A DNA stretch of 64,000 bases, from positions 55,843 to 119,842 of the forward strand of contig CAYVNN010000002.1 of the NCBI GenBank assembly GCA_964453185.1, written 5' to 3'. The notes under the pieces were generated by a model, which was not told the DNA's origin, made no database searches, and saw only the letters and a program-made list of their open reading frames with translations. Numbering within the stretch: position 1 is the first letter of the stretch; each line of letters begins with the position of its first letter. The position numbers and the translations under genes were made by a program. This document shows positions 4,759-52,734 of the stretch, piece after piece. This DNA comes from an uncultured Methanosarcinales archaeon (GTDB lineage: Archaea; Nanobdellota; Nanobdellia; Woesearchaeales; DSVV01).

Positions 4759-4917
4759 TTAAATATTCTTCAACATCTCTTGTTTATCATTATTAAACTT
4801 ACTCTGACACTCAAAACACACTAAATGCTTCTTACCTTTCTCATCCTTAATGTAGGTACCTATTACTTTCTTCAAAAAGGTTTCATTAATCTTTTTCTTA
4901 CATATTTCACATTTCAT
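4759..4917 (-). CDS. small zinc-ribbon protein (52 aa), not in the ORF track
   Basis: Reverse-strand translation MKCEICKKKINETFLKKVIGTYIKDEKGKKHLVCFECQSKFNNDKQEMLKNI, with CxxC...CxxC. Confidence 0.35.
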   Translation of the reverse strand: MKCEICKKKINETFLKKVIGTYIKDEKGKKHLVCFECQSKFNNDKQEMLKNI

Positions 4918-4959
4918 AAAAATAAGTTAACATCAATTGTTTAAAAAAGTTACTAAAAT

Positions 4960-5060
4960 AATGCCACCGCCTTGGCTCACTATTATAAATAATTTACAAT
5001 AGCGTCAGAATAAGATACGTACATAAAATAAATTTATAATGCCAGAGCCGCTGTGGCATT
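4960..5060. repeat. structured inverted-repeat element, copy A (ATAATGCCACCGCCTTGGCTCACTAT ... AATGCCAGAGCCGCTGTGGCATTAT)
   Basis: Terminal 10-bp stem ATAATGCCAC/GTGGCATTAT plus inner stem GGCTC/GAGCC. It shares the core with the copies at 17652, 23767, 28321, 43741 and 46133. It lies 3' of the minus-strand gene 5084..5956. Confidence 0.75.
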
Positions 5061-5083
5061 ATTAAAAAAATAAAATAAAAGAA

Positions 5084-12335: not shown

Positions 12336-14909
12336 ATGAAACATAGTATTTGGACAGAAAAATATAGACCTTCAACATTTGAAGAGATAAAAGGTCAAAA
12401 AGACGCAATTTCTAAGGTTAAAGCATTTGTTGAGCAAAAAAACATGCCGCACTTAATGTTTGCAGGTCCAGCTGGCGTTGGTAAAAGTACAACTGCTTTA
12501 GTTATAGCAAAACAATTATTTGGCAAAGAATGGAGAAATAATTTCCTTGAACTTAATGCATCTGACGAGAGAGGAATTGATGTAATCAGAGTAAAAGTTA
12601 AAGATTTTGCAAGGACAAGAGCCATAGGTGATGTACCATTTAAAATCATCTTCCTTGACGAGTGTTTAGATTATAATTCTAAAATTATTGTACAATCAAA
12701 CTATGGCATTGAAGAAGTTTCTATTGGTAATTTCGTTGAAAATTTTGATTTTCAAAATTATAAAATCATGTCTGTAGATGATAGTGGAGACATGATTTAT
12801 TCAAAAATTACCAAAACTATGAAGCTTCCTCATAATGCTAGTCATGGATACTACAAAATTAAAGTACATGATAAAGAAATAATTGTAACAGGAAATCATG
12901 AATTTTTATCAATTAATGGGTGGAAAAGAGCTGATGAGTTGAAGATAAAAGATCTAGTTCTATGCCCACAAAAAATTCCAATTATTAACAGAATCGAATC
13001 TAATAAACCATTGATATACAATTTAATAGGTTTACCACAGGAGATAAGAAAAAAAGAGAGATATTTACCACAGGAGATAAGAAAAAAAGAGAGATATCTT
13101 CCAAGATCACCTGAAAAACAAATTATTGAATTATTAGGAAAATATCCGGAAGGTTTAACTAGAGAAGAAATAACATTAAAAAGTAAAGTAAGTACTTCAA
13201 AAATAACTTCTATTTTAAGTGATAAAAACAATGTTTATTACATTCCACTAAGAAAACATAAGATCATTAAGAAAAATAAAGACAGATATATTTTAGGAGA
13301 TAATACAGGCAATTCCCTAGACAAGCTTTATAAAATTAAAAGGACACAAAATAATACAAATCAAGAATTCATCTTAACTCAACTTAAATCAAAAGAATTA
13401 TTTCCTATAAAAAGAGAAAATGCAATAATCTGTGCTAGGATTTTAGGGCACCTATTTAGTGATGGTTGTTTAACCCTTAAAAGTAAGCAACTATTTTTCT
13501 CTGGAAAAGAAGAGGATTTAAAAACTATAAAGAAAGATCTTAATAAATTAGGCTATTATTCATTAGGTAATATTAGACATTCAAAATGGAAAAAAGGTGA
13601 ATGTTGGTCTTTTGGAGCTTATAAACTAGAGTTATTAAGCTTATTTTACTCATTAGGTGCCCCAGTAGGAAAAAAGACAGACAATGTAGTAAGAATCCCT
13701 GAATGGATAATGGACAGTGACTTAACTATACAATCAGCATTCTTATCTGCCCTCTTTGGTGGAGATGGTTATGAACCAAAGTTCCAAGGGAGAACAGTCA
13801 AACAAATATTAATAGGAATCTCTAAGCGAGAAGATTTACAAAATAACCTAATTGAGTATCTGAAACAAATACAACAGTTACTTTCCAGATTTAATATAAC
13901 CTCAAGATATAGAATTTGTCCAGGTTATAAATCCACACGGAAAGACAATACAAATACTATTGAAGGCAGAATCTGGATTACTAATTCAATGGAAAATATT
14001 TATAAATTTCTAACTAAGATTGGATATTCATATTGCCAATATAAAGAAAAAACTACAAAAGATGTTATAAAATATTTGGATTGGAAAAAGAGTTTAGGAA
14101 AATTTATTTACACATTTAAACCAGTCCCTTATTTCTATGAATGGAGAGAAAATCTTATGCTTGGTGATTCTTCCTATCATTATGTAACATCTATTGAAAA
14201 AATTAAAGATCCAGATTTTGTATACTGTGTATCTACAGAATCTGGAAGATTTATAGCAAATAATATTGTAGTACATAATTGTGATGCTCTAACAAAAGAA
14301 GCACAACAAGCTCTGAGAAGAACAATGGAAAACTATACATTAACCACAAGATTTGTTTTATCATGTAATTATTCTTCAAAAATCATTGATCCAATCCAAA
14401 GTAGATGTGCAATGTTTAGATTTAAACGTCTACAACAAGATGAAATCATTGATTTAATCAATCATATTGCTACAGCAGAACAATTAAATATCGACGAGGA
14501 TGCAAAAAAAGCATTATACACAGTTTCTGAGGGAGATTGTAGAAAAGCAGAGAATATATTACAATGTTGTACTGCAATTAACAAACACATAACAAAAGAC
14601 CTAATATTTAGTATGGCATCTGTTGCAACACCAACAGAAATCAGAGAAATGCTAGAATTAGCTATTAATAATAAGTTTGTCGACGCTAGAAACAAATTAT
14701 TAGATACAATGTTAAAGTATGGTTTAAGTGGAATTGATATAATCAAACAAATAAACAGAGAAATCTGGAAACTAGATATCGACGACAAAATGAAAGTACA
14801 ACTCATCGACAAATGCGGAGAAACTGAATTCAGAATGACTGAAGGCAGTGATGAGTATTTACAACTTGAAGCATTATTAGCTAATTTTACTCTGTGTAGT
14901 TTGAAATAA
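12336..14909 (+). CDS. rfcS: replication factor C small subunit interrupted by an intein
   Basis: N-terminal EKYRPSTFEEIKGQ...FAGPAGVGKST Walker A, and IIFLDE|C...VVHN|CDALT Walker B split by the intein. C-terminal SRCAMFRFKRL sensor region. Confidence 0.9.
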   Translation: MKHSIWTEKYRPSTFEEIKGQKDAISKVKAFVEQKNMPHLMFAGPAGVGKSTTALVIAKQLFGKEWRNNFLELNASDERGIDVIRVKVKDFARTRAIGDVPFKIIFLDECLDYNSKIIVQSNYGIEEVSIGNFVENFDFQNYKIMSVDDSGDMIYSKITKTMKLPHNASHGYYKIKVHDKEIIVTGNHEFLSINGWKRADELKIKDLVLCPQKIPIINRIESNKPLIYNLIGLPQEIRKKERYLPQEIRKKERYLPRSPEKQIIELLGKYPEGLTREEITLKSKVSTSKITSILSDKNNVYYIPLRKHKIIKKNKDRYILGDNTGNSLDKLYKIKRTQNNTNQEFILTQLKSKELFPIKRENAIICARILGHLFSDGCLTLKSKQLFFSGKEEDLKTIKKDLNKLGYYSLGNIRHSKWKKGECWSFGAYKLELLSLFYSLGAPVGKKTDNVVRIPEWIMDSDLTIQSAFLSALFGGDGYEPKFQGRTVKQILIGISKREDLQNNLIEYLKQIQQLLSRFNITSRYRICPGYKSTRKDNTNTIEGRIWITNSMENIYKFLTKIGYSYCQYKEKTTKDVIKYLDWKKSLGKFIYTFKPVPYFYEWRENLMLGDSSYHYVTSIEKIKDPDFVYCVSTESGRFIANNIVVHNCDALTKEAQQALRRTMENYTLTTRFVLSCNYSSKIIDPIQSRCAMFRFKRLQQDEIIDLINHIATAEQLNIDEDAKKALYTVSEGDCRKAENILQCCTAINKHITKDLIFSMASVATPTEIREMLELAINNKFVDARNKLLDTMLKYGLSGIDIIKQINREIWKLDIDDKMKVQLIDKCGETEFRMTEGSDEYLQLEALLANFTLCSLK
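12663..14279 (+). other. intein (539 aa) with a LAGLIDADG homing endonuclease domain inside rfcS
   Basis: Begins with Cys at the DE|C junction and ends with HN, followed by Cys. Two LAGLIDADG-like motifs: ILGHLFSDGCL and LSALFGGDGY. Confidence 0.8.
13035..13100 (+). repeat. perfect tandem duplication (2 x 33 nt) inside the intein, encoding PQEIRKKERYL twice
   Basis: ccacaggagataagaaaaaaagagagatattta followed by ccacaggagataagaaaaaaagagagatatctt. Confidence 0.9.
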
Positions 14910-17570: not shown

Positions 17571-17651
17571 AATATATCCCTCCTTAATTATAAGTATATA
17601 CTTAATATACCTCTTTATATAATTTGTGGTAAAAATAACAATACTAGCATT

Positions 17652-17753
17652 AAAACCAGCGCCTTGAGTCACTATCTTATTTCTTCATAACTACGCACTA
17701 AAATATGTTGCGTTAATGAAAATTCCTCATAATGCCAGACTCGCTCTGGTTTT
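17652..17753. repeat. structured inverted-repeat element, copy B (CATTAAAACCAGCGCCTTGAGTCACTAT ... AATGCCAGACTCGCTCTGGTTTTAATG)
   Basis: The terminal stem is changed on both arms (AAAACCAG/CTGGTTTT) and the inner stem is changed on both arms (GAGTC/GACTC) relative to copy A. The core CGCCTTG..CACTAT / AATGCCAGA..CGC is retained. Confidence 0.75.
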
Positions 17754-17774
17754 AATGATTCATTATTGACTTTA

Positions 17775-20394: not shown

Positions 20395-23300
20395 TTACGA
20401 AGCCATTGAAGCAAACTGACCCAATGGTACATACTCAAATTGTACCTTTGTGTAATCAGGTAAAACAGTTCCTTCAACAGTATCTCTTTTTCTGACGTAA
20501 AATCCTTGTGAATCTTTTTCATCACACTGTCCCATTACATCATCATCTTCCCATTCAATTGTACAAAATTCTTTAAAATTACCCATATAATCTTTATAAT
20601 AAAGAAATATTTCATCATCTTCATACTTGGTCCAGATAAATCCAGTCCAAACTTCAACCTCATCTGCTCCTTCAATTAAATAATCTGAATTAATAACTGA
20701 ATATGCTAATATTTCATAATTAAAACTCATTAATTTCCCATCCTCTACCACAACATAATAACTAAATGCAGGATTATTATCAATATAAATCCATCTTTCA
20801 GAATATTCTTCTGATGTTGGAATTGTTCCTTCATAAACTGTTTCTGTTTGATTATTCGTGTAAATAAAAATCTTTAATTTCTTTGAATCATCAATACTAA
20901 TTATTAATTTAGTTCCTGATGTGTCTAAATCAATTGTTTCAGAAAAATCTTTTGTTTCACCATTAATTGTAAAACTTCCTTGTACTAAAAAGTTGTCCTC
21001 ATTTGTTTCTGATTTTAATTCTCCACTTTGCACAAGATTAAGCTCTTGAACTTTTTTATAATATGTTTCAACTAACTGAACATATAATCTAACCTGTTCA
21101 TAGTCGTCGTCATACTCACACCAATACCTTTTATCCCCTATACAATCTTGACTATCACAAAATACACCAACATATTCTCCATCTCTAATTCCACAAACAC
21201 CACCATAATATGTTGCTAACAAGTATTCTCTATTTAATTCAGGATCTTCTGAATCAAAAGGAATATTTTCATTATTTAATAAATCATACATTCTCCTTAC
21301 ACCAAACCTAATGTTTGTATCTGGATCAAATAAATCATAATCAACTATTCCCAATTCTGCAGCAATAACTGCAGCATCCTCTTCTGTTATCTGCATTAAT
21401 CCATTTGTTTCACCAAGAGGAGAAGATAATCCCACTGTTGTTGGATCATTCTTAGAACCTGCTGCAATCATTGCAATAACTAATTGTGGATCCATACCAT
21501 ACCTATCAGACCACTCTGAGATACTATTTGGACTTGAAGCATAATAAATAGTATAAATATCACTAACTAATTCATCTGGTTTTCCAGTATAAGATTCTTC
21601 TGATTTTGAATATGATGTTTCCGCATAACCTGCTGCAGTATCTGACTCAATCACCTTAACAGATGTGTCTTCAACAATTTTATAATCATACCTTGCTTTA
21701 ACAAAGAAATACTTTGTAGATATTGGTGTATTTCCTAATAGCTTATGTTCATCAACAATATCTAATCTACAATTGTATGAAACAAAATCTTCAATATCTT
21801 TGTAATGATTGGTGTTTCTTGAAGTGTCTAAATAATATGCATTATATCCATCTAACTCTTCTTGACATTTTAATAATAAGCATGCTCTCATTGTATCATC
21901 TGTAACTGCACCTTCATCTTCACATGCTCTATAGAAAGCAGTTTCATATTCTACATTACTACTTACACATCTATCCTCTGTATATTCTTTAAAATTAGTA
22001 TCTGAACAAGTATCAAGATCAAGTTCCATTGAATCTGGAATTATAACAACAATCTCTTTTATCTCTTCAATCATTCCATCCCAGTTTGTGTCAGCATCTA
22101 ATGTAATTCCTAATCTTGGTTTAACCTGATATGTTGAATCAATTCCTGTTAATGCACTATCTGGACCTATACCTAATCTAATTGGACCATTTGAATATCT
22201 TGCAACAGGATCTTTATCTTCCACTTGATACTGATCTAATAAATCAACACCATCTTTTAATGCAGAATTTAATCTATCTCTACTTGTAAAATATCTTTTA
22301 ACATAACCAATTGTTTCAAAATTAAACTTTGATTCAAATGTAACAGCATGTGAACCAGGACTTAATTTATTTTGAGGAATAGTACAATCAATTTCTTCCT
22401 GCTGCATATCATAAACTTCCATTGTTGCTGGATAAACTTCACCATAAACTTTACTTGTACCTTTTCCAGCATAACATGTTGTATTAATTTGCACCATATC
22501 ATCCAATGTTCTTGCCATTAATATTGCAAACACTGTAACTCTTTCATCTTCATAGAACTTTTCCTTTGAAGCCATAACATCTTCAATATAAACACCAAGC
22601 TGTTCTTCTTCATTCTCCTCAACCTGTCCAACATAATAGGTCGATGTGAGTTGTTTCTTTCTTATTTCCCAAATATCTCCAAACCTTGAAAATGCACCCC
22701 ATGTTGATGTAAATATTTGAGAACCACCTTCAACAAACTTATCCTTTAATACTAGAAATGCATCCCATCTTTCATAATCAGCTGTATCTAATTCTAAATC
22801 AGTAAAACCATACATTTGTCCCATACCATATGAAAGTATGATAAAGACCCACCACATAATAATTAAGAATCTTGATAACCTAATATACCATAACTTTGCT
22901 TCACTTCCTCTATAAACTGCATAGTAAATCCATGTTAACATAATAAATCCATTTGCTACAAACAAACGAATAAAATCAATAGATGCAATCATACTACTTG
23001 ATGCAACCATCCATGGAACAATAACCTCTATACAAAAACATACCAACATAATACGATACGTTTTTCCATTTCTCTCACTAGGATGAAAAATAAATAAGAT
23101 AGGCACAAGAATCATCCAAAATAAATTAAGAAAAATCCTATTTTTAATAGACAACCTTGATCCAATAACAACTGCATGATAAATACAAGCAAAAACAAAG
23201 AACCAAAATATACTAGAATTAGTTCTTCTTTCATCTTCATCTGCTCCACCTTTGAACAGATTAATGATTCCTTTACCACCATAATAAAAAGGAATAGATA

Positions 23301-23739
23301 AACCACGTGTAACAGCATTATGTGTTAAGAATTTACCAAAGCCTTTTGCTCTTTGCCATAATAAACTAGTTAATTGCTTTTTTCTATCTAACTCATCCAT
23401 TCCTTTAGCATGTCTTAATGCTTGAATCTTTGCAGTTAAATCAGAAAGATTAGCTTTATTTTCATTATGAGAATCTTTAAAATCTTTCCAAGGTTGTTGA
23501 AAAGTAGGCTTTACTGCATGTTCTTTCACATGAGGTAAGCCCAAATCTTTAGCCTTAGTCCAATTAGAATGAGCCATATCTACGGCTTCTGTTTTAGCAG
23601 CACCCCATGCCTTACCTGCTCCTGACTTAGTCTTACTCCAAGCAGCACTACTTACAGCTTTAGCTCCTGACTTAGTCTTACTCCAGGCAGCACTACCTAC
23701 AGCTTTAGCTCCTGCCTTAAATCCAGCCCATGATACCAT
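20395..23739 (-). CDS. giant (about 1114 aa) multi-TM protein with a large ectodomain containing an SLT-like (lytic transglycosylase) segment
   Basis: Start at the ATG at 23739 (MVSWAGFKAG), preceded by GAGGT. The longer ORF merely translates repeat copy C. Tandem AKAV(G/S)SAAWSKTKSG repeats are followed by about 6 TM helices. The ectodomain contains IAMIAAGSKNDPTTVGLSSPLGETNGLMQI, which resembles the SLT catalytic region but has Gly where the catalytic Glu is expected. Confidence 0.5.
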   Translation of the reverse strand: MVSWAGFKAGAKAVGSAAWSKTKSGAKAVSSAAWSKTKSGAGKAWGAAKTEAVDMAHSNWTKAKDLGLPHVKEHAVKPTFQQPWKDFKDSHNENKANLSDLTAKIQALRHAKGMDELDRKKQLTSLLWQRAKGFGKFLTHNAVTRGLSIPFYYGGKGIINLFKGGADEDERRTNSSIFWFFVFACIYHAVVIGSRLSIKNRIFLNLFWMILVPILFIFHPSERNGKTYRIMLVCFCIEVIVPWMVASSSMIASIDFIRLFVANGFIMLTWIYYAVYRGSEAKLWYIRLSRFLIIMWWVFIILSYGMGQMYGFTDLELDTADYERWDAFLVLKDKFVEGGSQIFTSTWGAFSRFGDIWEIRKKQLTSTYYVGQVEENEEEQLGVYIEDVMASKEKFYEDERVTVFAILMARTLDDMVQINTTCYAGKGTSKVYGEVYPATMEVYDMQQEEIDCTIPQNKLSPGSHAVTFESKFNFETIGYVKRYFTSRDRLNSALKDGVDLLDQYQVEDKDPVARYSNGPIRLGIGPDSALTGIDSTYQVKPRLGITLDADTNWDGMIEEIKEIVVIIPDSMELDLDTCSDTNFKEYTEDRCVSSNVEYETAFYRACEDEGAVTDDTMRACLLLKCQEELDGYNAYYLDTSRNTNHYKDIEDFVSYNCRLDIVDEHKLLGNTPISTKYFFVKARYDYKIVEDTSVKVIESDTAAGYAETSYSKSEESYTGKPDELVSDIYTIYYASSPNSISEWSDRYGMDPQLVIAMIAAGSKNDPTTVGLSSPLGETNGLMQITEEDAAVIAAELGIVDYDLFDPDTNIRFGVRRMYDLLNNENIPFDSEDPELNREYLLATYYGGVCGIRDGEYVGVFCDSQDCIGDKRYWCEYDDDYEQVRLYVQLVETYYKKVQELNLVQSGELKSETNEDNFLVQGSFTINGETKDFSETIDLDTSGTKLIISIDDSKKLKIFIYTNNQTETVYEGTIPTSEEYSERWIYIDNNPAFSYYVVVEDGKLMSFNYEILAYSVINSDYLIEGADEVEVWTGFIWTKYEDDEIFLYYKDYMGNFKEFCTIEWEDDDVMGQCDEKDSQGFYVRKRDTVEGTVLPDYTKVQFEYVPLGQFASMAS

Positions 23740-23766
23740 TATTAACCTCTTTTTTACAGCTATAAT

Positions 23767-23899
23767 AATGCCACCGCCTTGACTCACTATCTACTATATA
23801 GCGAAGGCGCTAAAAGTCTTTATACGTACAGCAGTGACTTAGTAGCATGCAATGCTACTACCTTCCCTCTACACATCGTGCCAGAGTCGCCGTGGCATT
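23767..23899. repeat. structured inverted-repeat element, copy C
   Basis: AATGCCACCGCCTTGACTCACTAT ... TGCCAGAGTCGCCGTGGCATT. Inner stem GACTC/GAGTC. The internal module TATAGCGAAGGCGCTAAAAGTCTTTATACGTACAG is shared with copy G. Confidence 0.75.
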
Positions 23900-24008
23900 A
23901 TTAACCTCTTTTTTAGTTTTACAACTACCTCAACTTAAATTCTAGAACTTCTTATATATAATATTTATGCATTTATGTATATAATAATTAAAACAAAAAA
24001 AGAAAATC

Positions 24009-27327: not shown

Positions 27328-27347
27328 ACATTGACATATACAATAGT

Positions 27348-27368
27348 ACCACCGCCTTGGCTCACCAT
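27348..27368. repeat. solo 5' half of the structured element (ACCACCGCCTTGGCTCACCAT), 21 nt after the pelA stop
   Basis: Matches the 5' core of copies A-G. No 3' partner within 100 nt. Confidence 0.6.
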
Positions 27369-28306: not shown

Positions 28307-28320
28307 TTCTCAAATACAAT

Positions 28321-28476
28321 AATGCCACCGCCTTGGCTCATTATCCTATCACAACATAGTATAGCGACAGGATATAGCAAAAGCAATTTTTGCTTTCTGC
28401 TTATTACGAAAAGCTTGCTTTGAGTATACGGTTTGTACATTATACATACACATTGAGTCAGAGCCGCAGTGGCATT
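28321..28476. repeat. structured inverted-repeat element, copy E (longest, 156 nt)
   Basis: AATGCCACCGCCTTGGCTCATTAT ... TCAGAGCCGCAGTGGCATTAT. Begins 15 nt after the stop of 27419..28306. Confidence 0.75.
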
Positions 28477-28565
28477 ATCTAGTTCTAACAATATATACAG
28501 TAATATACAAAAAACACACTTCTTCAGGGAAAACTTTAAAAATTAAAAAAAATTCAAGTATTCTA

Positions 28566-43738: not shown

Positions 43739-43740
43739 TA

Positions 43741-43847
43741 TTAACACCACCACCTTGACTCTGTATTGGATAATCCACAAGATCGCACTAAAAGTCGCGT
43801 TGCGTTATTCTAACTTTACTAAGAGCTAGAGTCGCTGTTGGCGTTAA
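43741..43847. repeat. structured inverted-repeat element, copy F
   Basis: TTAACACCACCACCTTGACTCTGTAT ... CTAGAGTCGCTGTTGGCGTTAA. Begins 3 nt after the stop of 42653..43738. The terminal stem pairs better when read from the minus strand (G-U instead of A-C). Confidence 0.65.
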
Positions 43848-43859
43848 TTTAAAGAAATC

Positions 43860-44580
43860 TTAAGCAGCATATCTTCTAACATGTTCTAATGCCTTAGGTA
43901 AATGATCTACAATATCTGCTTTTTGATATGTTCTAACAGCATTTCTCTCAAAACTAGGTGTACTTGGTTTTGCTGCTAACATAATTCGCATTCCTATCTG
44001 AGCAGGCAATGCTAAATCCATCTCATAAATATCTCCAATAACAAGAACATTATGTGGCTTAAGTCCTTTTTTTCTCATTAATCTAGTCAAAGTATTCCAA
44101 TATAATTTTCGTCTTAAATAAACATCTCTTTCATAACCAACAGGCCGGATAGATTCATCAACACCATACCAACCTAGATCTAAAGCATTTTTTCTTGCAT
44201 TTCCTACAACAGGAATACTTGTATACTTATCACCTAACATAGCTAATTTTCTTTCCACACCTGCTATTCTAGAATTTGTAACAATAACAACATCATGCAG
44301 GAACAACAATTCTTCCATGCTCTTTCCAACCATAATTAAAAGGATTCTCTCTAACAATCCTTTCCATTCTGCTCCATCTTTGATCAAACTCTTGTTGACT
44401 TATTCCTAATGCTTCTTTAAAATCATCTTTAAAAGCAGGAACATAAGGAGCTGTTTCCTTAAAAACATCAGTCAAAGTTCCATCAAAATCAAGAACAACT
44501 AATCTAATTCCCTCAACAGAACCTACTATCGGAACTCCTCTTCTCAATCTAGCATCCATTAATCTTGTTAATCTACTCAT
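43860..44580 (-). pseudogene. HAD-family hydrolase split by a frameshift into two overlapping ORFs (44293..44580 and 43860..44387)
   Basis: The upstream ORF carries motif I VVLDFDGTLTD. The downstream ORF carries motif IV VLVIGDIYEMDLALPAQIGMRIML. The two frames overlap by about 95 nt. Confidence 0.55.
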
Positions 44581-44632
44581 ATTAAGAAAGAGTTCTAGTT
44601 TAGTTTAAAAAAATTGTTAAAAAAAGAAAAAA

Positions 44633-45175
44633 TTAAAGTTGGAAATCACTTGGACCAATTACTATTTGTCTCTGTGCAACTCCATCATCTGGTGAAGTTA
44701 CTATATTATTTAGTGTATATCCAATCCAGTTATCCATTGAATTAACATCTGCTGAACCAACACCAACAGTATCACTACTATACCCTGATCTGTAACATTT
44801 TCCAGACGCATCTAATGATGTAAAATATCTTCCATCACCTGGAAGATCTAATACTACTACATCATCTGATGTAACACCATTATTATGCCAGTCTATATAA
44901 GCAACCTGTGCTAATCTTCCTTCAACAACTTTTGTTTCCTTTGCTACATACGGACTAAACTTACCCTCAGGAACATCAATACCATAGTCTTTCTTGATTT
45001 GATCTGGTGACATATATACTTTTAGACCTGAATCCTCAGCATATTGAGCTAATTCTGTTTTTGCTCCATAATCCATTGTAGGCTCTTCTGCTGCCCATCC
45101 ATCCATAGGCATTATAACTCTCGCAACTGTTCCTAAAACAACCGCTCCTTTTTTTAATTTTAATTCTAAACTCAT
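44633..45175 (-). CDS. hypothetical beta-rich protein (180 aa)
   Basis: No recognisable motif; weakly hydrophobic N-terminus. Confidence 0.35.
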   Translation of the reverse strand: MSLELKLKKGAVVLGTVARVIMPMDGWAAEEPTMDYGAKTELAQYAEDSGLKVYMSPDQIKKDYGIDVPEGKFSPYVAKETKVVEGRLAQVAYIDWHNNGVTSDDVVVLDLPGDGRYFTSLDASGKCYRSGYSSDTVGVGSADVNSMDNWIGYTLNNIVTSPDDGVAQRQIVIGPSDFQL

Positions 45176-45360
45176 TTTATATCAATCCTCCAAGATTTGT
45201 TTTTTGATTATCAACTCTTTTTGTCATATCAATAAGTATAACCGCCAGAGATATAAAACTACCCAATTAAAATCCGGTCAAATCTAAAAAAGAAGGCAAA
45301 TTAATCTAAATAAGTAGCAGAAATAACAAATTAAACTAACACTTGCAACAATCACAAATA

Positions 45361-45406
45361 TTATTTACCACTTAAAAGTAACGTAAAAAACAAAACATTT
45401 ATAACT
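45361..45406 (+). promoter_or_regulatory. conserved upstream element + BRE/TATA (TTATTTACCACTTAAAAGTAACGTAAAAAACAAAACATTTATAACT) for the cyclase gene
   Basis: Paralogous to 36711..36756. The TATA box lies about 22 nt before the ATG at 45428, which implies a leaderless transcript. Confidence 0.5.
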
Positions 45407-45427
45407 AGAAAACCATCTCCAACACAT

Positions 45428-46120
45428 ATGAACACTAAAACAGATGAAAATACTAAGACAAAAGTCGTTATGTTTGTAGATATTACTAATTATTCTAAAA
45501 AAACATCAAATATAAGCAAACAAGACCTAATCGAATTACATGACATATTTGATGGCTTCTGTATACCTAATTTTGAAGCATTTACAGGCAGAATCATCAA
45601 GAAAATAGGAGATGCATTCTTAGTAACCTTTGAGAATCCAACAGACGCAGTAATGTGCGGAATTGAATTACAGAAATCATTTCACAATCACAATAAAAAA
45701 ATAAGAAGAACAAGACCTAAAAATCAAATCAGAGTTAGAGTCGCACTCCACATGGGAGAAGTTACATATAGAAAAGGAGATATCTATGGTGACACAGTTA
45801 ACACTACAGCTCGTCTAGAAGCCTTATGTAAACCAGGACAAGTAGTATTTAGTGGATCAGTATATTCTGCAATGGAAAGAAACGGAATAGGTATTGTCCA
45901 TTTAGGTTTAAGAAAATTAAAAGGAATGAAATATCCAGTACAAGCATTTAGAATCAGAACCAAAGTAGACGACAGAATCATCAAGATTAAGAAAAGAAAG
46001 AAATCATATACAAAATTTAAACAAAGAATCAGTGCCAGTATATTATTACTTATTTCACTAATAGCTGGAGCAGCTTCTGTTGCTATTATTCTATATTATC
46101 TATTTAGTACAGTTTTATAA
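45428..46120 (+). CDS. class III nucleotidyl (adenylate/guanylate-type) cyclase with a C-terminal TM anchor
   Basis: VVMFVDITNYS (metal-binding Asp), IGDAFLVTF, GDTVNTTARLE and a C-terminal ILLLISLIAGAASVAIILYYLF helix. Confidence 0.7.
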   Translation: MNTKTDENTKTKVVMFVDITNYSKKTSNISKQDLIELHDIFDGFCIPNFEAFTGRIIKKIGDAFLVTFENPTDAVMCGIELQKSFHNHNKKIRRTRPKNQIRVRVALHMGEVTYRKGDIYGDTVNTTARLEALCKPGQVVFSGSVYSAMERNGIGIVHLGLRKLKGMKYPVQAFRIRTKVDDRIIKIKKRKKSYTKFKQRISASILLLISLIAGAASVAIILYYLFSTVL

Positions 46121-46132
46121 GCAAATAATTTG

Positions 46133-46242
46133 GCATTTGTACTAGCACCTTGACTCACTATTAAATAATACAGCGAAAGCGCTAAAAGTCTTATACGTAC
46201 AGAAAAACATACATTGTATCAGAGTCGTCCTAGTACAAATGC
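46133..46242. repeat. structured inverted-repeat element, copy G
   Basis: GCATTTGTACTAGCACCTTGACTCACTAT ... TATCAGAGTCGTCCTAGTACAAATGC. The terminal stem is a perfect 13-bp helix with a sequence unrelated to the other copies. Begins 13 nt after the cyclase stop. Confidence 0.75.
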
Positions 46243-46325
46243 AATTTATAACCAAGGCAGCAGCATTACTACATTAGTAGATAATATAGGAAAAATTAAT
46301 AAACTTTGTATAATTATTTACATTA

Positions 46326-47351
46326 ATGAAGTTTAAATCAGACAAAGAATCAAAACCAATCAAACTTGATCTAAAAGATAAAAGAATTCTAAAATTACTT
46401 GACTTAAATTCTAAACAAAGTTATTCTGCAATTGCAAAAAAAGTTGGATTATCTAAAGAAAGTATTAGATATAGAATAAAACAACTAGAAGACAAAGGAG
46501 TAATACAAGGATACAGACTTGTAGTTGATATGCAGAAATTAGGATTCATTGTTAATCATATTTTTATGACACTAAGCAAACCAGACCTAAAGATTGAAGC
46601 AGATTACTTAGATAAACTAATCAAACTACCCTTTGTCAGAGCAATAATTAAATTTAATGGAGATTATGATTATGAAATTGCAATGGTTGCAAAGAATGTT
46701 GAAGAGATTGATAATAATCTAAACACATTACTTGAAGATGTAAGTCAATTCATAAAAAAACAAGAATTATTTATTGTTGTTAAATATTACGTAAAAAAAG
46801 GATTACCAAATAGTTTTTTACCAGAATCTCAAGCAGGATTTAAGAAAGTAACAAATGAGACGACAAAAGAACCAAATATTGATGAAAAAGATTTAAAGAT
46901 AATTGATGCAATGAAAGGACAAGCAAATAAACCAATCTATCAAATTGCAGAAGAAACAGGATATTCTTCAGAAGTTGTTTCTTACAGACTTAAAAAGATG
47001 GAAAAATCTGGCTTTATATCTAATTATACAATTGCACTTAATTATTATGCATTTAATTATCAAGTCTATGTAATATTACTTAATGTCCATAGTTTACATG
47101 GTGAAACTGAACAAAAACTAGCTAGTTTCTTAGAAAATGATAATAATGTTATTTGGGCAGTTAAAACAATTGGTAAATATAATGTTATTGCATATGTCTG
47201 CACAAAAAGCATTAATGAATTACATGAAACCATAGATAAAATAAGAAGAAACTTTGGAGATAACCTTCAAGATCACAAAACATTAATTGCTTATGAAAAC
47301 AATAAGTTTACTTATGTACCTGATGTTGCACTAAGTGAAGAAGCAGAGTAA
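46326..47351 (+). CDS. tandem (double) Lrp/AsnC-family transcriptional regulator
   Basis: Two HTH_AsnC-like segments (KDKRILKLLDLNSKQSYSAIAKKVGLSKESIRYRIKQLEDKGVIQGY and DLKIIDAMKGQANKPIYQIAEETGYSSEVVSYRLKKMEKSGFI), each followed by a RAM-like domain. Confidence 0.65.
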   Translation: MKFKSDKESKPIKLDLKDKRILKLLDLNSKQSYSAIAKKVGLSKESIRYRIKQLEDKGVIQGYRLVVDMQKLGFIVNHIFMTLSKPDLKIEADYLDKLIKLPFVRAIIKFNGDYDYEIAMVAKNVEEIDNNLNTLLEDVSQFIKKQELFIVVKYYVKKGLPNSFLPESQAGFKKVTNETTKEPNIDEKDLKIIDAMKGQANKPIYQIAEETGYSSEVVSYRLKKMEKSGFISNYTIALNYYAFNYQVYVILLNVHSLHGETEQKLASFLENDNNVIWAVKTIGKYNVIAYVCTKSINELHETIDKIRRNFGDNLQDHKTLIAYENNKFTYVPDVALSEEAE

Positions 47352-47358
47352 TCATTAT

Positions 47359-47379
47359 CACCACTGCCTTGGTTCATTA
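47359..47379. repeat. solo 5' half of the structured element (ACCACTGCCTTGGTTCATTAT), 8 nt after the Lrp gene stop
   Basis: Matches the 5' core with 2 substitutions; no 3' partner. Confidence 0.5.
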
Positions 47380-47421
47380 TTCCAAAAACTTTAAAAACCA
47401 GTAAACTAAGAATCTTATACA

Positions 47422-47760
47422 ATGGTAAAAAAAGAGGTATTTATTAATAGAACTCCTAGTTTATTTGAGTTAATATTATTATTAGCTGGATTGGGTGTTA
47501 CTATTCTTGGTTTTTATCTCATTCATCAACAATACATACTTGATGGAGCAATATTATCATGGAATTTACTAATTAGCGTATTCTTATGGTTACTCCTAAT
47601 CATTGGAATAATATTAGTAGCATTGTTAGAAGATGTTAAAATGGAGCTTTCTACTGTAATAAAAGAACATGTTGAAGAAATTCGACTATTACAAGATGAA
47701 GATAAACTTCTTAAGAAAATAGCTAAAAATAGTAAAAAACCAAGGAAAAAGAGAAAGTAA
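47422..47760 (+). CDS. small membrane protein with 2 TM helices and a basic C-terminal tail
   Basis: Two hydrophobic helices, then KNSKKPRKKRK. Confidence 0.4.
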   Translation: MVKKEVFINRTPSLFELILLLAGLGVTILGFYLIHQQYILDGAILSWNLLISVFLWLLLIIGIILVALLEDVKMELSTVIKEHVEEIRLLQDEDKLLKKIAKNSKKPRKKRK

Positions 47761-47786
47761 TTTAAATATAGGTTTAATTCTGAGGT

Positions 47787-48111
47787 ATTGTAGGGAAGTA
47801 CTTAACTATCGGTGTAAACTGAGGAAAGTCCGTCCACCGTGAAAGACCAGTCTTGGAAGGGACATGGAGAAATTCATGGCAACCACTCAGAAACGAAACC
47901 ACTTGTACTGGGAATGATAGAGTGAAGCAAATGGCGACATTTGTTAGTATCCTCTTGACTATCTTTACAAGAAAGGATGAAACGGTGAGCCCTGGTTGGT
48001 GCAAGGCAGTAACTTTATGTTACATCAGTCCGCTAAGTTAAATGTTAAGGGGTCTGTTTGCATTCAAGGTGCATAGACTCAACAGAAGACGGCTTACCTC
48101 TTCTCTACAAT
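47787..48111 (+). ncRNA. rnpB: RNase P RNA (archaeal type A-like)
   Basis: GAGGAAAGTCCG (P4 5' strand / CR-I) near the 5' end and CAACAGAAGACGGCTTACC (CR-V / P4 3' strand) near the 3' end. P1 pairing of ATTGTAGGGAAG (47787-47798) with CTTCTCTACAAT (48100-48111). Length about 325 nt. Confidence 0.85.
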
Positions 48112-51019: not shown

Positions 51020-51739
51020 ATGATATATTCTCAACATAAAGATATGGCAGACTATTGGAAAACAATTATAAGAGAAGGAAGAGATGCTTTTAGAACATAT
51101 GTTTCTGATCCTGCTCTATTTGAAAGATTAGATACATTAGATGAAAATTCAAGAATCTTAGATGCAGGTTGTGGAGAAGGCTATGTTTCAAGGAGATTAA
51201 CAAAACAAGGACATGAAGTTATTGGTATTGATTTATCTGAACCATTAATTGAACATGCAAGAGAACTCGCAACAACAGAAACATATCAAGTTTGTGATGT
51301 TCTTACTTTACCATTTGATGAACAAACATTTGATGTAGTCGTAGCAAACTTCTTATTGATGGAATTTGAACACCCAGAGTTAGCAATACAAAGGCTTGCC
51401 AAAGTTCTCAGACATGGTGGAAGATTTATTTTTCAGATACTAAATCCAAGAATGAATACTTCTCTTTCAGGTGTAATGAAAGGAGAAGAAGATAGATATC
51501 ATGAAACCCAGAGACTTGAAGAAAGATTTGTTGTTGATGGAACAGTATCACCAAGAGCAGCTGTATATTTCCATCATCCTTTTGAAAGATATGAACAAGC
51601 CTTAGCTGAACATGGATTTAGAAGAATATACCGGGCCATCCCTGAACCAATTGCTGAAACCCCAACTGATCATGCCATGATTAAAACGCTAAAACAACCA
51701 TGGTTTGTTTTAATGGATTATGAAAAGGTTCAATCATAA
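51020..51739 (+). CDS. class I SAM-dependent methyltransferase
   Basis: Motif I ILDAGCGEGYVSRRL, with an acidic residue after beta2 (IDLSE). Confidence 0.65.
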   Translation: MIYSQHKDMADYWKTIIREGRDAFRTYVSDPALFERLDTLDENSRILDAGCGEGYVSRRLTKQGHEVIGIDLSEPLIEHARELATTETYQVCDVLTLPFDEQTFDVVVANFLLMEFEHPELAIQRLAKVLRHGGRFIFQILNPRMNTSLSGVMKGEEDRYHETQRLEERFVVDGTVSPRAAVYFHHPFERYEQALAEHGFRRIYRAIPEPIAETPTDHAMIKTLKQPWFVLMDYEKVQS

Positions 51740-52734
51740 GAAAGTAATTTCTCCCTCTCTAACTTTTTCAAAGGATAAGGATCATAAATTAAATCATTCT
51801 CAAACATCACTATGAATTCTACATTCTTAATTATGTCATTAAACTCAATTCTTAACTTTGATATTTCTTTTTGTAATTCTTCTTGAGATTCAACTTCTAT
51901 TGTTATCTCAAAATTCCATTTTCCTACTGTCTCTATGGCGAGGACCATTCTTGGATTTGAATAAGCATAAGAGAAAAGACTGCTTCTTACTTTCTCTTCC
52001 ATATTCTGTAAATTAAATAACAACCTATAACTTTGCATACCATAATTCTGGGATCTAATGTAAGTAGTGTGTGCTTGAATGATTCCTCTTTTTTCTAAAT
52101 GTTTAATTCTTAACGAAATTGTGCTAGCTGGTTTTTTGATAATCTGGGCAAGTTTTATTATACTCATACGGGCATTGTTTGACATTAGTGACAAGATTGT
52201 AGAATCTAACTCATCTAATTCTTCTATATCTGGTTTTTTTCCAAAGTAAGGTGGTTGGAATGATTTAGGTATATTTCCTGTTAAGTAATCTCTTTTATTT
52301 TGTCTTAATTCTGTTCTTATGGTTACACTATTGTCAACTAAATAATTTCCATATTTTGTAAGAATTTGATAATAAATTGTATTAAATTCATAAACACTTT
52401 TTGCCATAATCCCAAAGACTATATCAAATTTCCCTCCGATTGTAGCAATCCAGTAAAGTTCAGGAATACTACCTAGGTATTCAATCATTTCATTCTTTAA
52501 TTTCTCATCAACATTTTGAAACCTACTGTAAACACCAAATCCAGTATATCCCAATTTAGCGAAATTTACTAAAGTTGTATATCTTTCTATTATCCCTCTC
52601 TTTTCAAGATTTTTAATTCTATAAATAACAGTCTCTTTTGATAATCTTACTTTCTTCCCTATCTCTTGAAATGTTGCCCTGGCATTAAGATCCAGTTCTG
52701 CTAATATCTTTCTATCCTTAATATCTAACTGCAT
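51730..52734 (-). CDS. tandem (double) Lrp/AsnC-family regulator, paralog of 46326..47351
   Basis: Start at the ATG at 52734 (MQLDIKDRKILAELDLNARATFQEIGKKVRLSKETVIYRIKNLEKRGII), with a second HTH_AsnC in the C-terminal half. The 5' extension of the track ORF overlaps the divergent gene and lacks features. Confidence 0.6.
   Translation of the reverse strand: MQLDIKDRKILAELDLNARATFQEIGKKVRLSKETVIYRIKNLEKRGIIERYTTLVNFAKLGYTGFGVYSRFQNVDEKLKNEMIEYLGSIPELYWIATIGGKFDIVFGIMAKSVYEFNTIYYQILTKYGNYLVDNSVTIRTELRQNKRDYLTGNIPKSFQPPYFGKKPDIEELDELDSTILSLMSNNARMSIIKLAQIIKKPASTISLRIKHLEKRGIIQAHTTYIRSQNYGMQSYRLLFNLQNMEEKVRSSLFSYAYSNPRMVLAIETVGKWNFEITIEVESQEELQKEISKLRIEFNDIIKNVEFIVMFENDLIYDPYPLKKLEREKLLSYD

What the first reader, a model, noticed from the sequence alone, without database searches (positions are those of the whole stretch)
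46133..46242. Compensatory covariation in both stems of the repeat element argues for selection on structure, not sequence
Stem1 is ATAATGCCAC/GTGGCATTAT in copies A, C and E. In copy B it is CATTAAAACCAG/CTGGTTTTAATG. In copy G it is GCATTTGTACTAG/CTAGTACAAATGC, a perfect 13-bp helix. These three sequences are entirely different but always perfectly complementary. The inner stem also switches while staying paired: GGCTC/GAGCC in A and E, GACTC/GAGTC in C, F and G, and GAGTC/GACTC in B. The single-stranded core (CGCCTT, ACTAT, TCAGA) stays constant. Independent double substitutions that preserve pairing at two helices in 6 copies are very unlikely under neutral decay of a transposon TIR. In copy F the terminal helix has an A-C mismatch on the plus strand that becomes a G-U wobble on the minus strand, hinting that the minus-strand transcript is the folded species there.
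Basis: seen in the sequence. Interest (0 to 1): 0.8.

Follow-up and report, generated by a model that had tools for sequence, protein, structure and literature searches.

The report
Hairpin repeat family with co-varying arms
A small DPANN archaeon carries a genome-specific family of 105-160 bp intergenic hairpin repeats whose stem arms change sequence but stay perfectly complementary; they look more like inserted foldback DNA recognised by shape than a conserved RNA gene.

Summary
The window holds six complete copies: A 4958-5062, B 17648-17757, C 23765-23901, E 28319-28478, F 43741-43847, G 46133-46242. There are also two solo 5' halves, D 27343-27368 and H 47355-47380. All eight lie on the + strand.

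Of the 20 base pairs, 10 change on both sides, in 16 cells. None changes on one side only, and there is no G.U pair. 0/500 shuffles reach this.

I do not think this points to an RNA.
- Pairing is strictly Watson-Crick.
- Both strands fold equally well once composition is controlled.
- Orientation follows the replication strand, not the neighbouring genes.
- The interior is hypervariable and mosaic.
- Rfam has no match.
- The orthologous sites of B, C and F are empty in the two nearest relatives.

The nearest relative has its own two-copy family with the same architecture.

Best reading (about 0.5): lineage-specific foldback DNA insertions, like MITEs or REPINs. They have a sequence-free stem and an invariant bulged junction that a protein would recognise by shape. 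No transposase or recombinase was found, so the mechanism is inferred.

The parts
4958..5062 (+). Copy A, complete. Arms ATAATGCCAC/GTGGCATTAT, inner stem GGCTC/GAGCC.
   Evidence: covariance model, 111 bits
17648..17757 (+). Copy B, complete. Arms CATTAAAACCAG/CTGGTTTTAATG, inner stem GAGTC/GACTC. It lies inside a minus-strand gene cluster.
   Evidence: The orthologous spacer in L143 is empty.
23765..23901 (+). Copy C, complete. Its arms are as in A and E, but its inner stem and interior are of the G type (a mosaic), with one extra apical hairpin.
   Evidence: The orthologous sites in L140 and L143 are empty.
23737..23756 (.). Left copy of the 20-nt direct repeat CATTATTAACCTCTTTTTTA. It is the ribosome-binding site and ATG context of minus-strand gene 20395-23739.
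   Evidence: The longest repeat between random 62-mer pairs is usually 5-8 nt.
23896..23915 (.). Right copy of the same 20-nt repeat. It overlaps the last 6 nt of C's 3' arm and sits next to the ancestral promoter.
27343..27368 (+). Copy D, a solo 5' half: ATAGTACCAC-CGCCTT-GGCTC-ACCAT. There is no 3' half. It lies between the stop codon of the Pelota gene and the TATA box of the next plus-strand gene.
28319..28478 (+). Copy E, complete. Arms as in A and C. The interior is 121 nt and has extra hairpins.
43741..43847 (+). Copy F, complete. Arms TTAACACCAC/GTTGGCGTTAA, with two A.C mismatches and one bulged T. It fills the gap between two convergent genes.
   Evidence: The relative has THUMP-RNase P RNA here with no element.
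46133..46242 (+). Copy G, the flagged copy, complete.
   Evidence: 111.5 bits
46133..46145 (+). G: 5' arm of the outer stem, GCATTTGTACTAG.
46146..46156 (+). G: junction. C (1x1 mismatch), AC (2-bp helix, compensated against GT), CTT (3-nt bulge), GACTC (5' side of the inner stem). CCTTG is invariant in all 8 copies.
46157..46221 (+). G: interior. ACTAT, then a variable region holding GCTAAAAGT (46181-46189), an internal copy of the arm (CATTGTATCAG) and CA.
46222..46229 (+). G: GAGTC (3' side of the inner stem), GT (2-bp helix), C (mismatch partner).
46230..46242 (+). G: 3' arm of the outer stem, CTAGTACAAATGC.
47355..47380 (+). Copy H, a solo 5' half: TTATCACCAC-TGCCTT-GGTTC-ATTAT. There is no 3' half. 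It lies just upstream of the TATA box of gene 47422-47760.

Best explanation
These are a lineage-specific family of small non-coding foldback DNA repeats, of the general kind of MITEs, REPINs and other hairpin-forming intergenic repeats. They were gained by insertion into intergenic spacers of this Woesearchaeota/Nanoarchaeota-like genome.

The conserved part is the base of a hairpin:
- a perfect stem of at least 10 bp whose sequence is free to vary;
- an invariant asymmetric junction: a C.N mismatch, a 2-bp GC helix, a CTT bulge on one arm and a 5-bp stem.

Above this sits a hypervariable apical region that tolerates extra hairpins.

Inferred mechanism: the element acts, and probably spreads, as a folded single DNA strand or a cruciform. 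An unidentified protein (transposase or recombinase) would recognise it by shape and by the bulged junction. Any arm mutation that breaks the stem is then either selected against or corrected from the other arm by template switching within the hairpin. Either route yields strictly Watson-Crick compensation. Exchange of modules between copies adds the mosaicism.

Shown: the family, its anatomy, the covariation, the fixed polarity, the empty orthologous sites and the lack of any known RNA family match.

Inferred: that the constraint acts on DNA rather than RNA, that the elements are mobile, and that a protein partner exists.
For: 1. Covariation is strictly Watson-Crick. 10/20 pairs change on both sides, 0 change on one side, and there is no G.U in 115 cells.
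2. The hairpin is equally good on both strands. RNA z-scores are -1.1 to -5.7 on + and -1.3 to -5.4 on -, and DNA parameters give similar values.
3. All 8 copies share one polarity, while the flanking genes run both ways. Third-codon-position skew shows the whole window is one replication arm with the minus strand G/T-rich. Polarity therefore follows replication, not transcription.
4. The elements were gained by insertion.
   - The B site is empty in L143.
   - The C site is empty in L140 and L143, where the same promoter and ribosome-binding site are conserved.
   - The F site in L125 is THUMP, then 26 nt, then RNase P RNA.
   - Evidence. The covariance model finds nothing in about 160 kb of loci from relatives.
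5. Copy C carries a 20-nt flanking duplication that rebuilds the ribosome-binding site and ATG of the gene it landed beside.
6. Only the hairpin base is conserved. The interiors share nothing except the C-G block and a few short motifs, and the relationships are mosaic.
7. Truncated solo halves exist, as for other repeat families.
8. The nearest relative has its own two-copy family with the same plan:
   - 12-bp arms, with 6 pairs changed on both sides and all Watson-Crick;
   - a conserved proximal 4 bp;
   - a short GC helix followed by a 3-nt pyrimidine bulge on the 5' arm.
9. No Rfam family matches, even at E<=10.
Against: - No transposase, integrase or HUH protein lies in the 84 kb examined. 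The only transposase seen is an IS6-type gene 13 kb away, and its ends are unrelated.
- There is no consistent target-site duplication; five of six copies have only chance-level flanking repeats.
- The termini are not sequence-conserved, which is unlike classical MITEs.
- All samples carry an identical strain, so no presence/absence polymorphism or excision product could be seen.
- Only about 84 kb of a contig of at least 405 kb could be read. The copies cluster within 43 kb, so local duplication could also explain the shared orientation.
- With six sequences the covariation statistics are descriptive only.
- The absence of G.U is suggestive, not proof.
- The relative's family has many G.U pairs in its predicted interior helices on the G/T-rich strand. 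This would also fit a folded RNA.
Confidence: 0.5

Rival explanations
1. A family of structured RNAs. They could be a cis-acting hairpin in 3' untranslated or intercistronic regions (stabiliser, processing site or terminator), or independent small RNA genes. The stems would be kept by selection on RNA folding.
For: - The hairpin is strong and significant (z -4 to -5.7).
- There is covariation in three helices.
- The unpaired junction nucleotides are conserved.
- Copies lie within 3-25 nt of stop codons.
- Variable apical hairpins are common in RNA families.
- A short central stem with G.U on the + strand is seen in A, C and G.
- The relative's family has about 9 G.U among its 33 predicted pairs.
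Against: - No G.U pair and no one-sided change occurs in the 20 well-defined pairs.
- The two strands do not differ in z-score.
- Orientation is independent of the flanking genes, so roughly half the copies would be antisense whichever strand is chosen.
- There is no consistent promoter or oligo-T terminator (read directly).
- The interior is not conserved.
- There is no Rfam match.
- The element is absent at the orthologous sites in relatives.
Confidence: 0.2
2. Structure-defined recombination sites that bound gene cassettes, working like integron attC sites. A recombinase would act on the folded single strand, which would explain the same-orientation sites, the solo halves and the exchange of modules.
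For: - Stem sequence is free while pairing, extrahelical bases and a variable apical structure are kept, which is the attC principle.
- All sites share one orientation.
- F, G and H lie in a 4-kb block that the collinear relative lacks.
- D and E flank a single gene.
- The mosaic boundary in C falls exactly at the CTT bulge and at the 3' end of the inner stem.
- Integrons and integrase-less attC clusters are reported in DPANN archaea (PMC9668308).
Against: - There is no R''/R' core (RYYYAAC/GTTRRRY) on either strand (sequences).
- The bulge geometry differs from attC.
- Spacing is 1-15 kb, and housekeeping genes on both strands lie between sites.
- No integrase lies in the 84 kb examined.
- Other indels relative to the relative carry no elements.
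Confidence: 0.08
3. Functionless palindromes. They would be old duplicated inverted repeats whose arms stay identical only through mechanical homogenisation (quasi-palindrome template switching, gene conversion). There would be no selection and no current mobility.
For: - Compensation is strictly Watson-Crick, with almost no intermediates.
- The mosaic pattern shows sequence exchange between copies.
- The copies cluster within 43 kb in one orientation.
- No mobilising enzyme was found.
Against: - Homogenisation should also erase the asymmetric features. Yet the C.N mismatch and the CTT bulge are invariant in all copies, and CCTTG is identical in 8/8.
- The same architecture recurs in a different sequence family in the relative.
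- The insertions lie at several unrelated sites.
Confidence: 0.12
4. A regulatory DNA module. The 5' core (CCACCGCCTTGGCTCAC) would be a transcription-factor site or portable promoter element acting on the downstream gene.
For: - The solo halves D and H sit 8-16 nt upstream of the TATA boxes of plus-strand genes, which start about 30 nt further on.
- A, C and G have TATA-like runs just after the 5' core.
- Several Lrp/AsnC-type regulators are encoded nearby.
Against: - E and F lie between convergent genes, with nothing downstream to regulate.
- TATA-like strings are everywhere in a genome of 30% GC.
- This idea does not explain why the long outer stem is kept complementary.
Confidence: 0.05

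Closest known systems
REP / REPIN elements (mobilised by RAYT, a Y1 HUH transposase) in bacteria
   Same: Short intergenic hairpin-forming repeats. They are non-coding and many sit after gene ends. The hairpin is preserved by compensatory changes within a genome, and families are genome-specific. (These REPIN properties are from general knowledge, not tested here.)
   Different: There is no conserved GTAG-type 5' tetranucleotide. No RAYT was found in the 84 kb examined. The organism is an archaeon. The element has a single long hairpin with an invariant bulged junction, not a doublet of REP palindromes. All copies share one polarity.
Integron attC sites
   Same: Defined by structure rather than sequence: paired stems of free sequence, conserved unpaired or extrahelical bases, a variable apical structure, and one orientation along the array. 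attC sites act as folded single-stranded DNA.
   Different: There are no RYYYAAC/GTTRRRY cores. The bulge geometry is different. No integrase is adjacent. Spacing is kilobases to 15 kb, with housekeeping genes on both strands in between.
MITEs of DDE transposons (for example Correia elements, archaeal MITEs)
   Same: About 100-160 bp, non-coding, intergenic, folding into a hairpin through inverted ends, absent from orthologous sites in relatives, and occurring also as truncated copies.
   Different: The terminal repeats are not sequence-conserved. There is no regular target-site duplication. No parent insertion sequence with matching ends was found.
IS200/IS605-derived miniature elements (PATEs)
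   Same: No terminal inverted repeats are needed and no target duplication is made. They are recognised as single-strand hairpins, and their polarity is tied to the replication strand. Y1 transposases occur in related Woesearchaeota.
   Different: Those elements have two subterminal hairpins and a fixed target tetranucleotide. Here there is one large hairpin and no demonstrable target motif. The end hairpins of the relative's IS200 element are unrelated.

Membership tests
Integron attC | Conserved R'' (RYYYAAC) and R' (GTTRRRY) cores at the base of the stem | tested here: not met
   The arm ends were read on both strands. There is no AAC...GTT core. Only F contains GTT, and it does not fit RRRY.
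Integron attC | Paired stems of free sequence with conserved extrahelical bases and a variable apical structure | tested here: inconclusive
   The principle is met. The geometry differs from attC: a 1x1 mismatch, a 2-bp helix and a 3-nt bulge.
Integron attC | Dense same-orientation array next to an integron integrase | tested here: not met
   The orientation is shared. But spacing is 1-15 kb, and there is no integrase in the window or 10 kb either side.
MITE (DDE transposon derivative) | Terminal inverted repeats conserved in sequence among copies | tested here: not met
   The 10 arm positions nearest the core are only 4-8/10 identical between subfamilies.
MITE (DDE transposon derivative) | Target-site duplication of fixed length | tested here: not met
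   Only C has a flanking repeat (20 nt). The other copies are at chance level.
MITE (DDE transposon derivative) | A parent insertion sequence with the same ends | tested here: inconclusive
   The nearby IS6-type gene has unrelated ends. The rest of the genome could not be read.
REP/REPIN or IS200/IS605 miniature element | A Y1 HUH transposase or RAYT in the genome, flanked by the same hairpins | tested here: inconclusive
   None is present in the 84 kb examined. A search with a relative's Y1 transposase found no homolog on the 405-kb contig. Other contigs could not be tested.
REP/REPIN or IS200/IS605 miniature element | Polarity tied to the replication strand; no terminal repeat or target duplication needed | tested here: met
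   8/8 copies share one polarity within a single skew domain. There is no regular duplication.
REP/REPIN or IS200/IS605 miniature element | A conserved target or cleavage tetranucleotide next to the hairpin | tested here: inconclusive
   [AT]TAC lies 1-7 nt left of five copies. These copies share flank homology, so they are not independent (read directly).
Any described RNA family (Rfam 15) | A covariance-model match | tested here: not met
   Nothing reached the gathering score. At E<=10 there were only chance microRNA and snoRNA hits.
Archaeal bulge-helix-bulge processing stem | Two 3-nt bulges on opposite strands, separated by a 4-bp helix | tested here: not met
   There is one 3-nt bulge (CTT), then a 5-bp helix, then a 2x3 or larger internal loop.
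Kink-turn | A 3-nt bulge followed by tandem sheared G.A pairs | tested here: not met
   The pairs after the bulge are Watson-Crick G-C and R-Y.
Oligo-T terminator after a hairpin | A T-run directly downstream on the transcribed strand | tested here: not met
   Only C is followed by a T-run, and that run is the duplicated ribosome-binding-site region.

The most novel reading that the evidence does not exclude
These elements, together with the differently sequenced but identically built family in the nearest relative, would represent an undescribed class of shape-defined single-strand DNA sites in DPANN archaea. Each would have a stem of free sequence and an invariant mismatch-helix-bulge junction. 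An unknown enzyme would use them for transposition or cassette recombination, with a polarity set by the replication fork.
Probability: 0.15. Interest if true: 0.7.

Novelty: new variant of a known kind. Interest (0 to 1): 0.45.

Why it matters
DPANN archaea have tiny genomes, and their mobile DNA is poorly known. A hairpin repeat recognised by shape rather than sequence would be missed by sequence-based repeat and RNA annotation. It could mark an unrecognised way of rearranging genes.

More practically, this case shows that clean compensatory covariation among paralogous repeats does not by itself identify an RNA. DNA hairpins give the same signal. The absence of G.U pairs, equal folding of both strands and the polarity of the copies help to tell the two apart.

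Tried and rejected
- **Genome scan.** One recurring hit is a GC-rich Mariprofundus repeat sharing CGCCTTGACTCACTAT. It folds differently and scores E=0.14-0.7 with the model, so I treat it as chance.
- **Metagenome scans.** The two scans gave 0 hits and 11 chance hits in GC-rich coding DNA.
- **Viral and phage searches.** Viral contigs gave nothing or only chance coding hits. The phage collection gave no match.
- **Rfam.** Searches at the gathering score and at E<=10 found nothing.
- **More of the genome.** Walking out from the window added only 10 kb on each side, with no further copy.
- **Other samples.** They hold the same strain at 99.9-100% identity, so there is no polymorphism to use.
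- **Strand test by folding.** Raw energies favour the minus strand in 6/6 copies. This disappears after dinucleotide shuffling, so it is a composition effect.
- **Ruled out by geometry or sequence.**
  - Bulge-helix-bulge, kink-turn, C/D box and tRNA-like readings.
  - A coding reading: the frames contain stop codons.
- **Target-derived arms.** Rejected, because the distal arm halves are still about 58% identical between subfamilies (hand count), against about 29% expected at this base composition.
- **Link to transposons.** I found no link to the neighbouring IS6-type gene or to a relative's IS200 ends.
- **Two-sequence consensus folds (B/F).** Too dependent on the alignment to use.

Full report
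**Source organism.** The window comes from an AT-rich (about 30% GC) DPANN archaeon.
- It encodes an archaeal RNase P RNA at 47790-48108.
- Its proteins match Woesearchaeota/Nanoarchaeota sequences best. The nearest relative in the databases is only 52-75% identical at the protein level.
- The same strain, 99.9-100% identical, occurs in several metagenomes, and its longest contig is 405 kb.

- Motif searches and a covariance model built from the copies find six complete elements: A 4958-5062, B 17648-17757, C 23765-23901, E 28319-28478, F 43741-43847 and G 46133-46242.
- There are also two solo 5' halves, D 27343-27368 and H 47355-47380, with no 3' partner anywhere nearby.
- All eight are on the + strand.
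- No further copy lies in the rest of the window or in 10 kb beyond each end.

**Anatomy, read on the + strand from the outside in.**
1. An outer stem of 10-13 bp.
2. A 1x1 mismatch: C on the 5' arm faces T, C or A.
3. A 2-bp helix, GC/GC.
4. A 3-nt bulge, CTT, on the 5' arm only.
5. A 5-bp inner stem.
6. An interior of 65-121 nt that begins with ACTAT and ends with CA.

The five bases CCTTG are identical in all eight copies. Just before the 3' side of the inner stem, the interior holds a direct copy of the 5' arm (CATAATGCCAG in A and B, diverged in the others). This copy can pair locally with the 3' arm. C and E carry extra apical hairpins.

**Covariation.** On the six-copy alignment:
- 93.9% of cells are standard pairs.
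- 10 of 20 pairs (16 cells) change on both sides, and none changes on one side only.
- No shuffle out of 500 reaches the observed values. Slid controls fall to 28-48% pairing.
- RNAalifold predicts the same helices unaided.
It is GC/GC in A, B, C and E, AC/GT in G, and AC/GC (an A.C mismatch) in F.
- The outer arms are alignable rather than unrelated. The proximal CCAC/GTGG is largely kept, and the distal halves are still well above chance identity. The changes are therefore true compensations within one family, not unrelated inverted repeats.
- C and G share 33 of 36 interior bases yet only 4 of 10 arm bases. A, C and E have identical arms but almost unrelated interiors.
- This mosaic shows that modules are exchanged between copies, so there are fewer independent events than cells. 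In C the exchange boundaries fall at the CTT bulge and at the 3' end of the inner stem.

**RNA or DNA?** Several results point away from a conserved RNA.
- There is not one G.U pair among 115 cells, whereas RNA helices normally show wobble intermediates.
- Raw energies favour the minus strand in all six copies. After dinucleotide-preserving shuffles, both strands have the same z-scores with RNA and DNA parameters. The difference is a composition effect.
- Rfam has nothing, even at E<=10.
- Orientation ignores the neighbouring genes.
  - A, B and C lie between minus-strand genes.
  - D, G and H lie between plus-strand genes.
  - E and F lie between convergent genes.
- Third-codon-position GC skew is -0.12 for plus-strand genes and +0.57 for minus-strand genes, each measured on its own coding strand. 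Intergenic DNA agrees. The whole window is therefore one replication arm with the minus strand G/T-rich, and the elements share a polarity relative to replication.
- The three non-standard cells are all A.C on the + strand, which is G.T on the G/T-rich strand. That is what this mutational bias would give, so F's mismatches do not identify a transcript.

**Gained by insertion.** The nearest relatives are collinear here.
- *F site.* In the relative, the THUMP methyltransferase gene is followed after 26 nt by RNase P RNA. In the window, F and a 4-kb block holding G and H lie between them.
- *C site.* Two relatives have a 104-nt spacer with the same TATA box, a conserved AATTCTGGA block and the ribosome-binding site, but no element.
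- *C duplication.* In the window, C is flanked by a 20-nt direct repeat (23737-23756 and 23896-23915) that re-creates the ribosome-binding site and ATG for the downstream gene.
- *B site.* The relative L143 keeps the conserved promoter block and about 30 nt of spacer, where the window has B.
- The covariance model finds nothing in about 160 kb of loci from relatives.
- Apart from C, there is no target-site duplication above chance.

**A parallel family in the relative.** The nearest relative has two hairpins of its own, at L125 17433-17545 and 19908-20015. They are built the same way.
- The arms are 12 bp. Six pairs differ on both sides, and all are Watson-Crick.
- The proximal 4 bp (CTAC/GTAG) are conserved.
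- After an internal loop come a 3-bp GC-rich helix, then a 3-nt pyrimidine bulge on the 5' arm, then an inner stem.
- 76 nt separate the arms.
- The interior carries ACTTTTAGC, the reverse complement of the GCTAAAAGT found in C and G.

Replication polarity in that genome is opposite to the window's. The junction geometry and the central motif give conflicting answers about which strands correspond, so I leave homology open. The recurrence of the architecture argues for a functional constraint on shape.

**What it is not.**
- Not an attC site: there are no R cores, no integrase, and the geometry and spacing are wrong.
- Not a classical MITE: the termini vary and there is no regular duplication.
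- Not a bulge-helix-bulge stem, a kink-turn or a terminator.

No transposase or recombinase lies in the 84 kb examined. A nearby IS6-type gene has unrelated ends, and a relative's IS200 element has unrelated end hairpins. A search with that relative's Y1 transposase found no homolog on the 405-kb contig.

**Verdict.** The covariation is genuine. It shows that pairing, not sequence, is maintained. The best-supported reading (about 0.5) is a lineage-specific foldback DNA repeat recognised and propagated by shape. A conserved bulged junction would be the recognition feature. The arms would stay complementary through selection on the hairpin, through intra-hairpin templated correction, or both.

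A structured RNA remains possible (about 0.2). An attC-like cassette site is the most interesting variant not excluded.

Limits:
- Only six full copies from one strain are available.
- Only 84 kb of the genome was readable.
- No expression or polymorphism data exist.

Noticed in passing
window 1-64000; L125, L140: The third-codon-position GC skew is very strong and looks replication-driven. On their own coding strands, plus-strand genes give -0.12 and minus-strand genes +0.57. The collinear relative has the opposite polarity (+0.72 / -0.46), so the same gene order is replicated in opposite directions in the two genomes.
   Followed up: partly
window 23737-23756 and 23896-23915: A 20-nt direct repeat, CATTATTAACCTCTTTTTTA, flanks copy C. 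It duplicates the ribosome-binding site and start codon of gene 20395-23739. The right copy creates a 9-codon upstream reading frame (MPRRLWHDV) on the minus strand.
   Followed up: partly
L125 17433-17545 and 19908-20015: The nearest relative has its own two-copy hairpin family. The arms are different but perfectly paired, and the interior is conserved and rich in predicted G.U pairs on the G/T-rich strand.
   Followed up: partly
window 43739-47789 compared with L125 11077-11110: A 4-kb block lies between the THUMP gene and RNase P RNA. It holds three small minus-strand genes, a guanylate-cyclase-domain gene, a double-HTH Lrp-like gene and a 112-aa gene, together with F, G and H. The relative lacks this block.
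   Followed up: partly
window 47790-48108: An archaeal RNase P RNA (Rfam RF00373, 127.6 bits).
   Followed up: yes
L008, L009, L020, L021, L041, L052, L059, L061, L091 (Mariprofundus MAGs): A GC-rich modular repeat in a zetaproteobacterial MAG contains the exact 16-mer CGCCTTGACTCACTAT, and GAGTCGC about 70 nt downstream. Its fold is different and the model score is not significant, so this is probably coincidence.
   Followed up: partly
window 12336-14909: The replication factor C large subunit gene carries an intein with a LAGLIDADG domain (Pfam list).
   Followed up: no
window 23618-23707: A near-perfect 45-nt tandem duplication lies inside the N-terminal coding region of the 1114-aa secreted protein gene (peptide repeat AKAVSSAAWSKTKSG).
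   Followed up: no
window 4759-4917 (minus strand): A 52-aa reading frame with CxxC...CxxC spacing, probably a small zinc-ribbon protein. Its likely TATA box is 8-17 nt from the left end of copy A.
   Followed up: no
L144 14584-15042 and 15100-15180: A relative about 60% identical carries an IS200/IS605 Y1 transposase with GC-rich end hairpins. Homologs are common in Woesearchaeota, mostly on very short contigs.
   Followed up: partly
window 46326-47351, 51730-52734; L119 2549-3532: There are three paralogous genes for double HTH_AsnC (Lrp-like) proteins within 84 kb. The two that lie in the window are about 27% identical to each other. One of the three sits between copies G and H.
   Followed up: no
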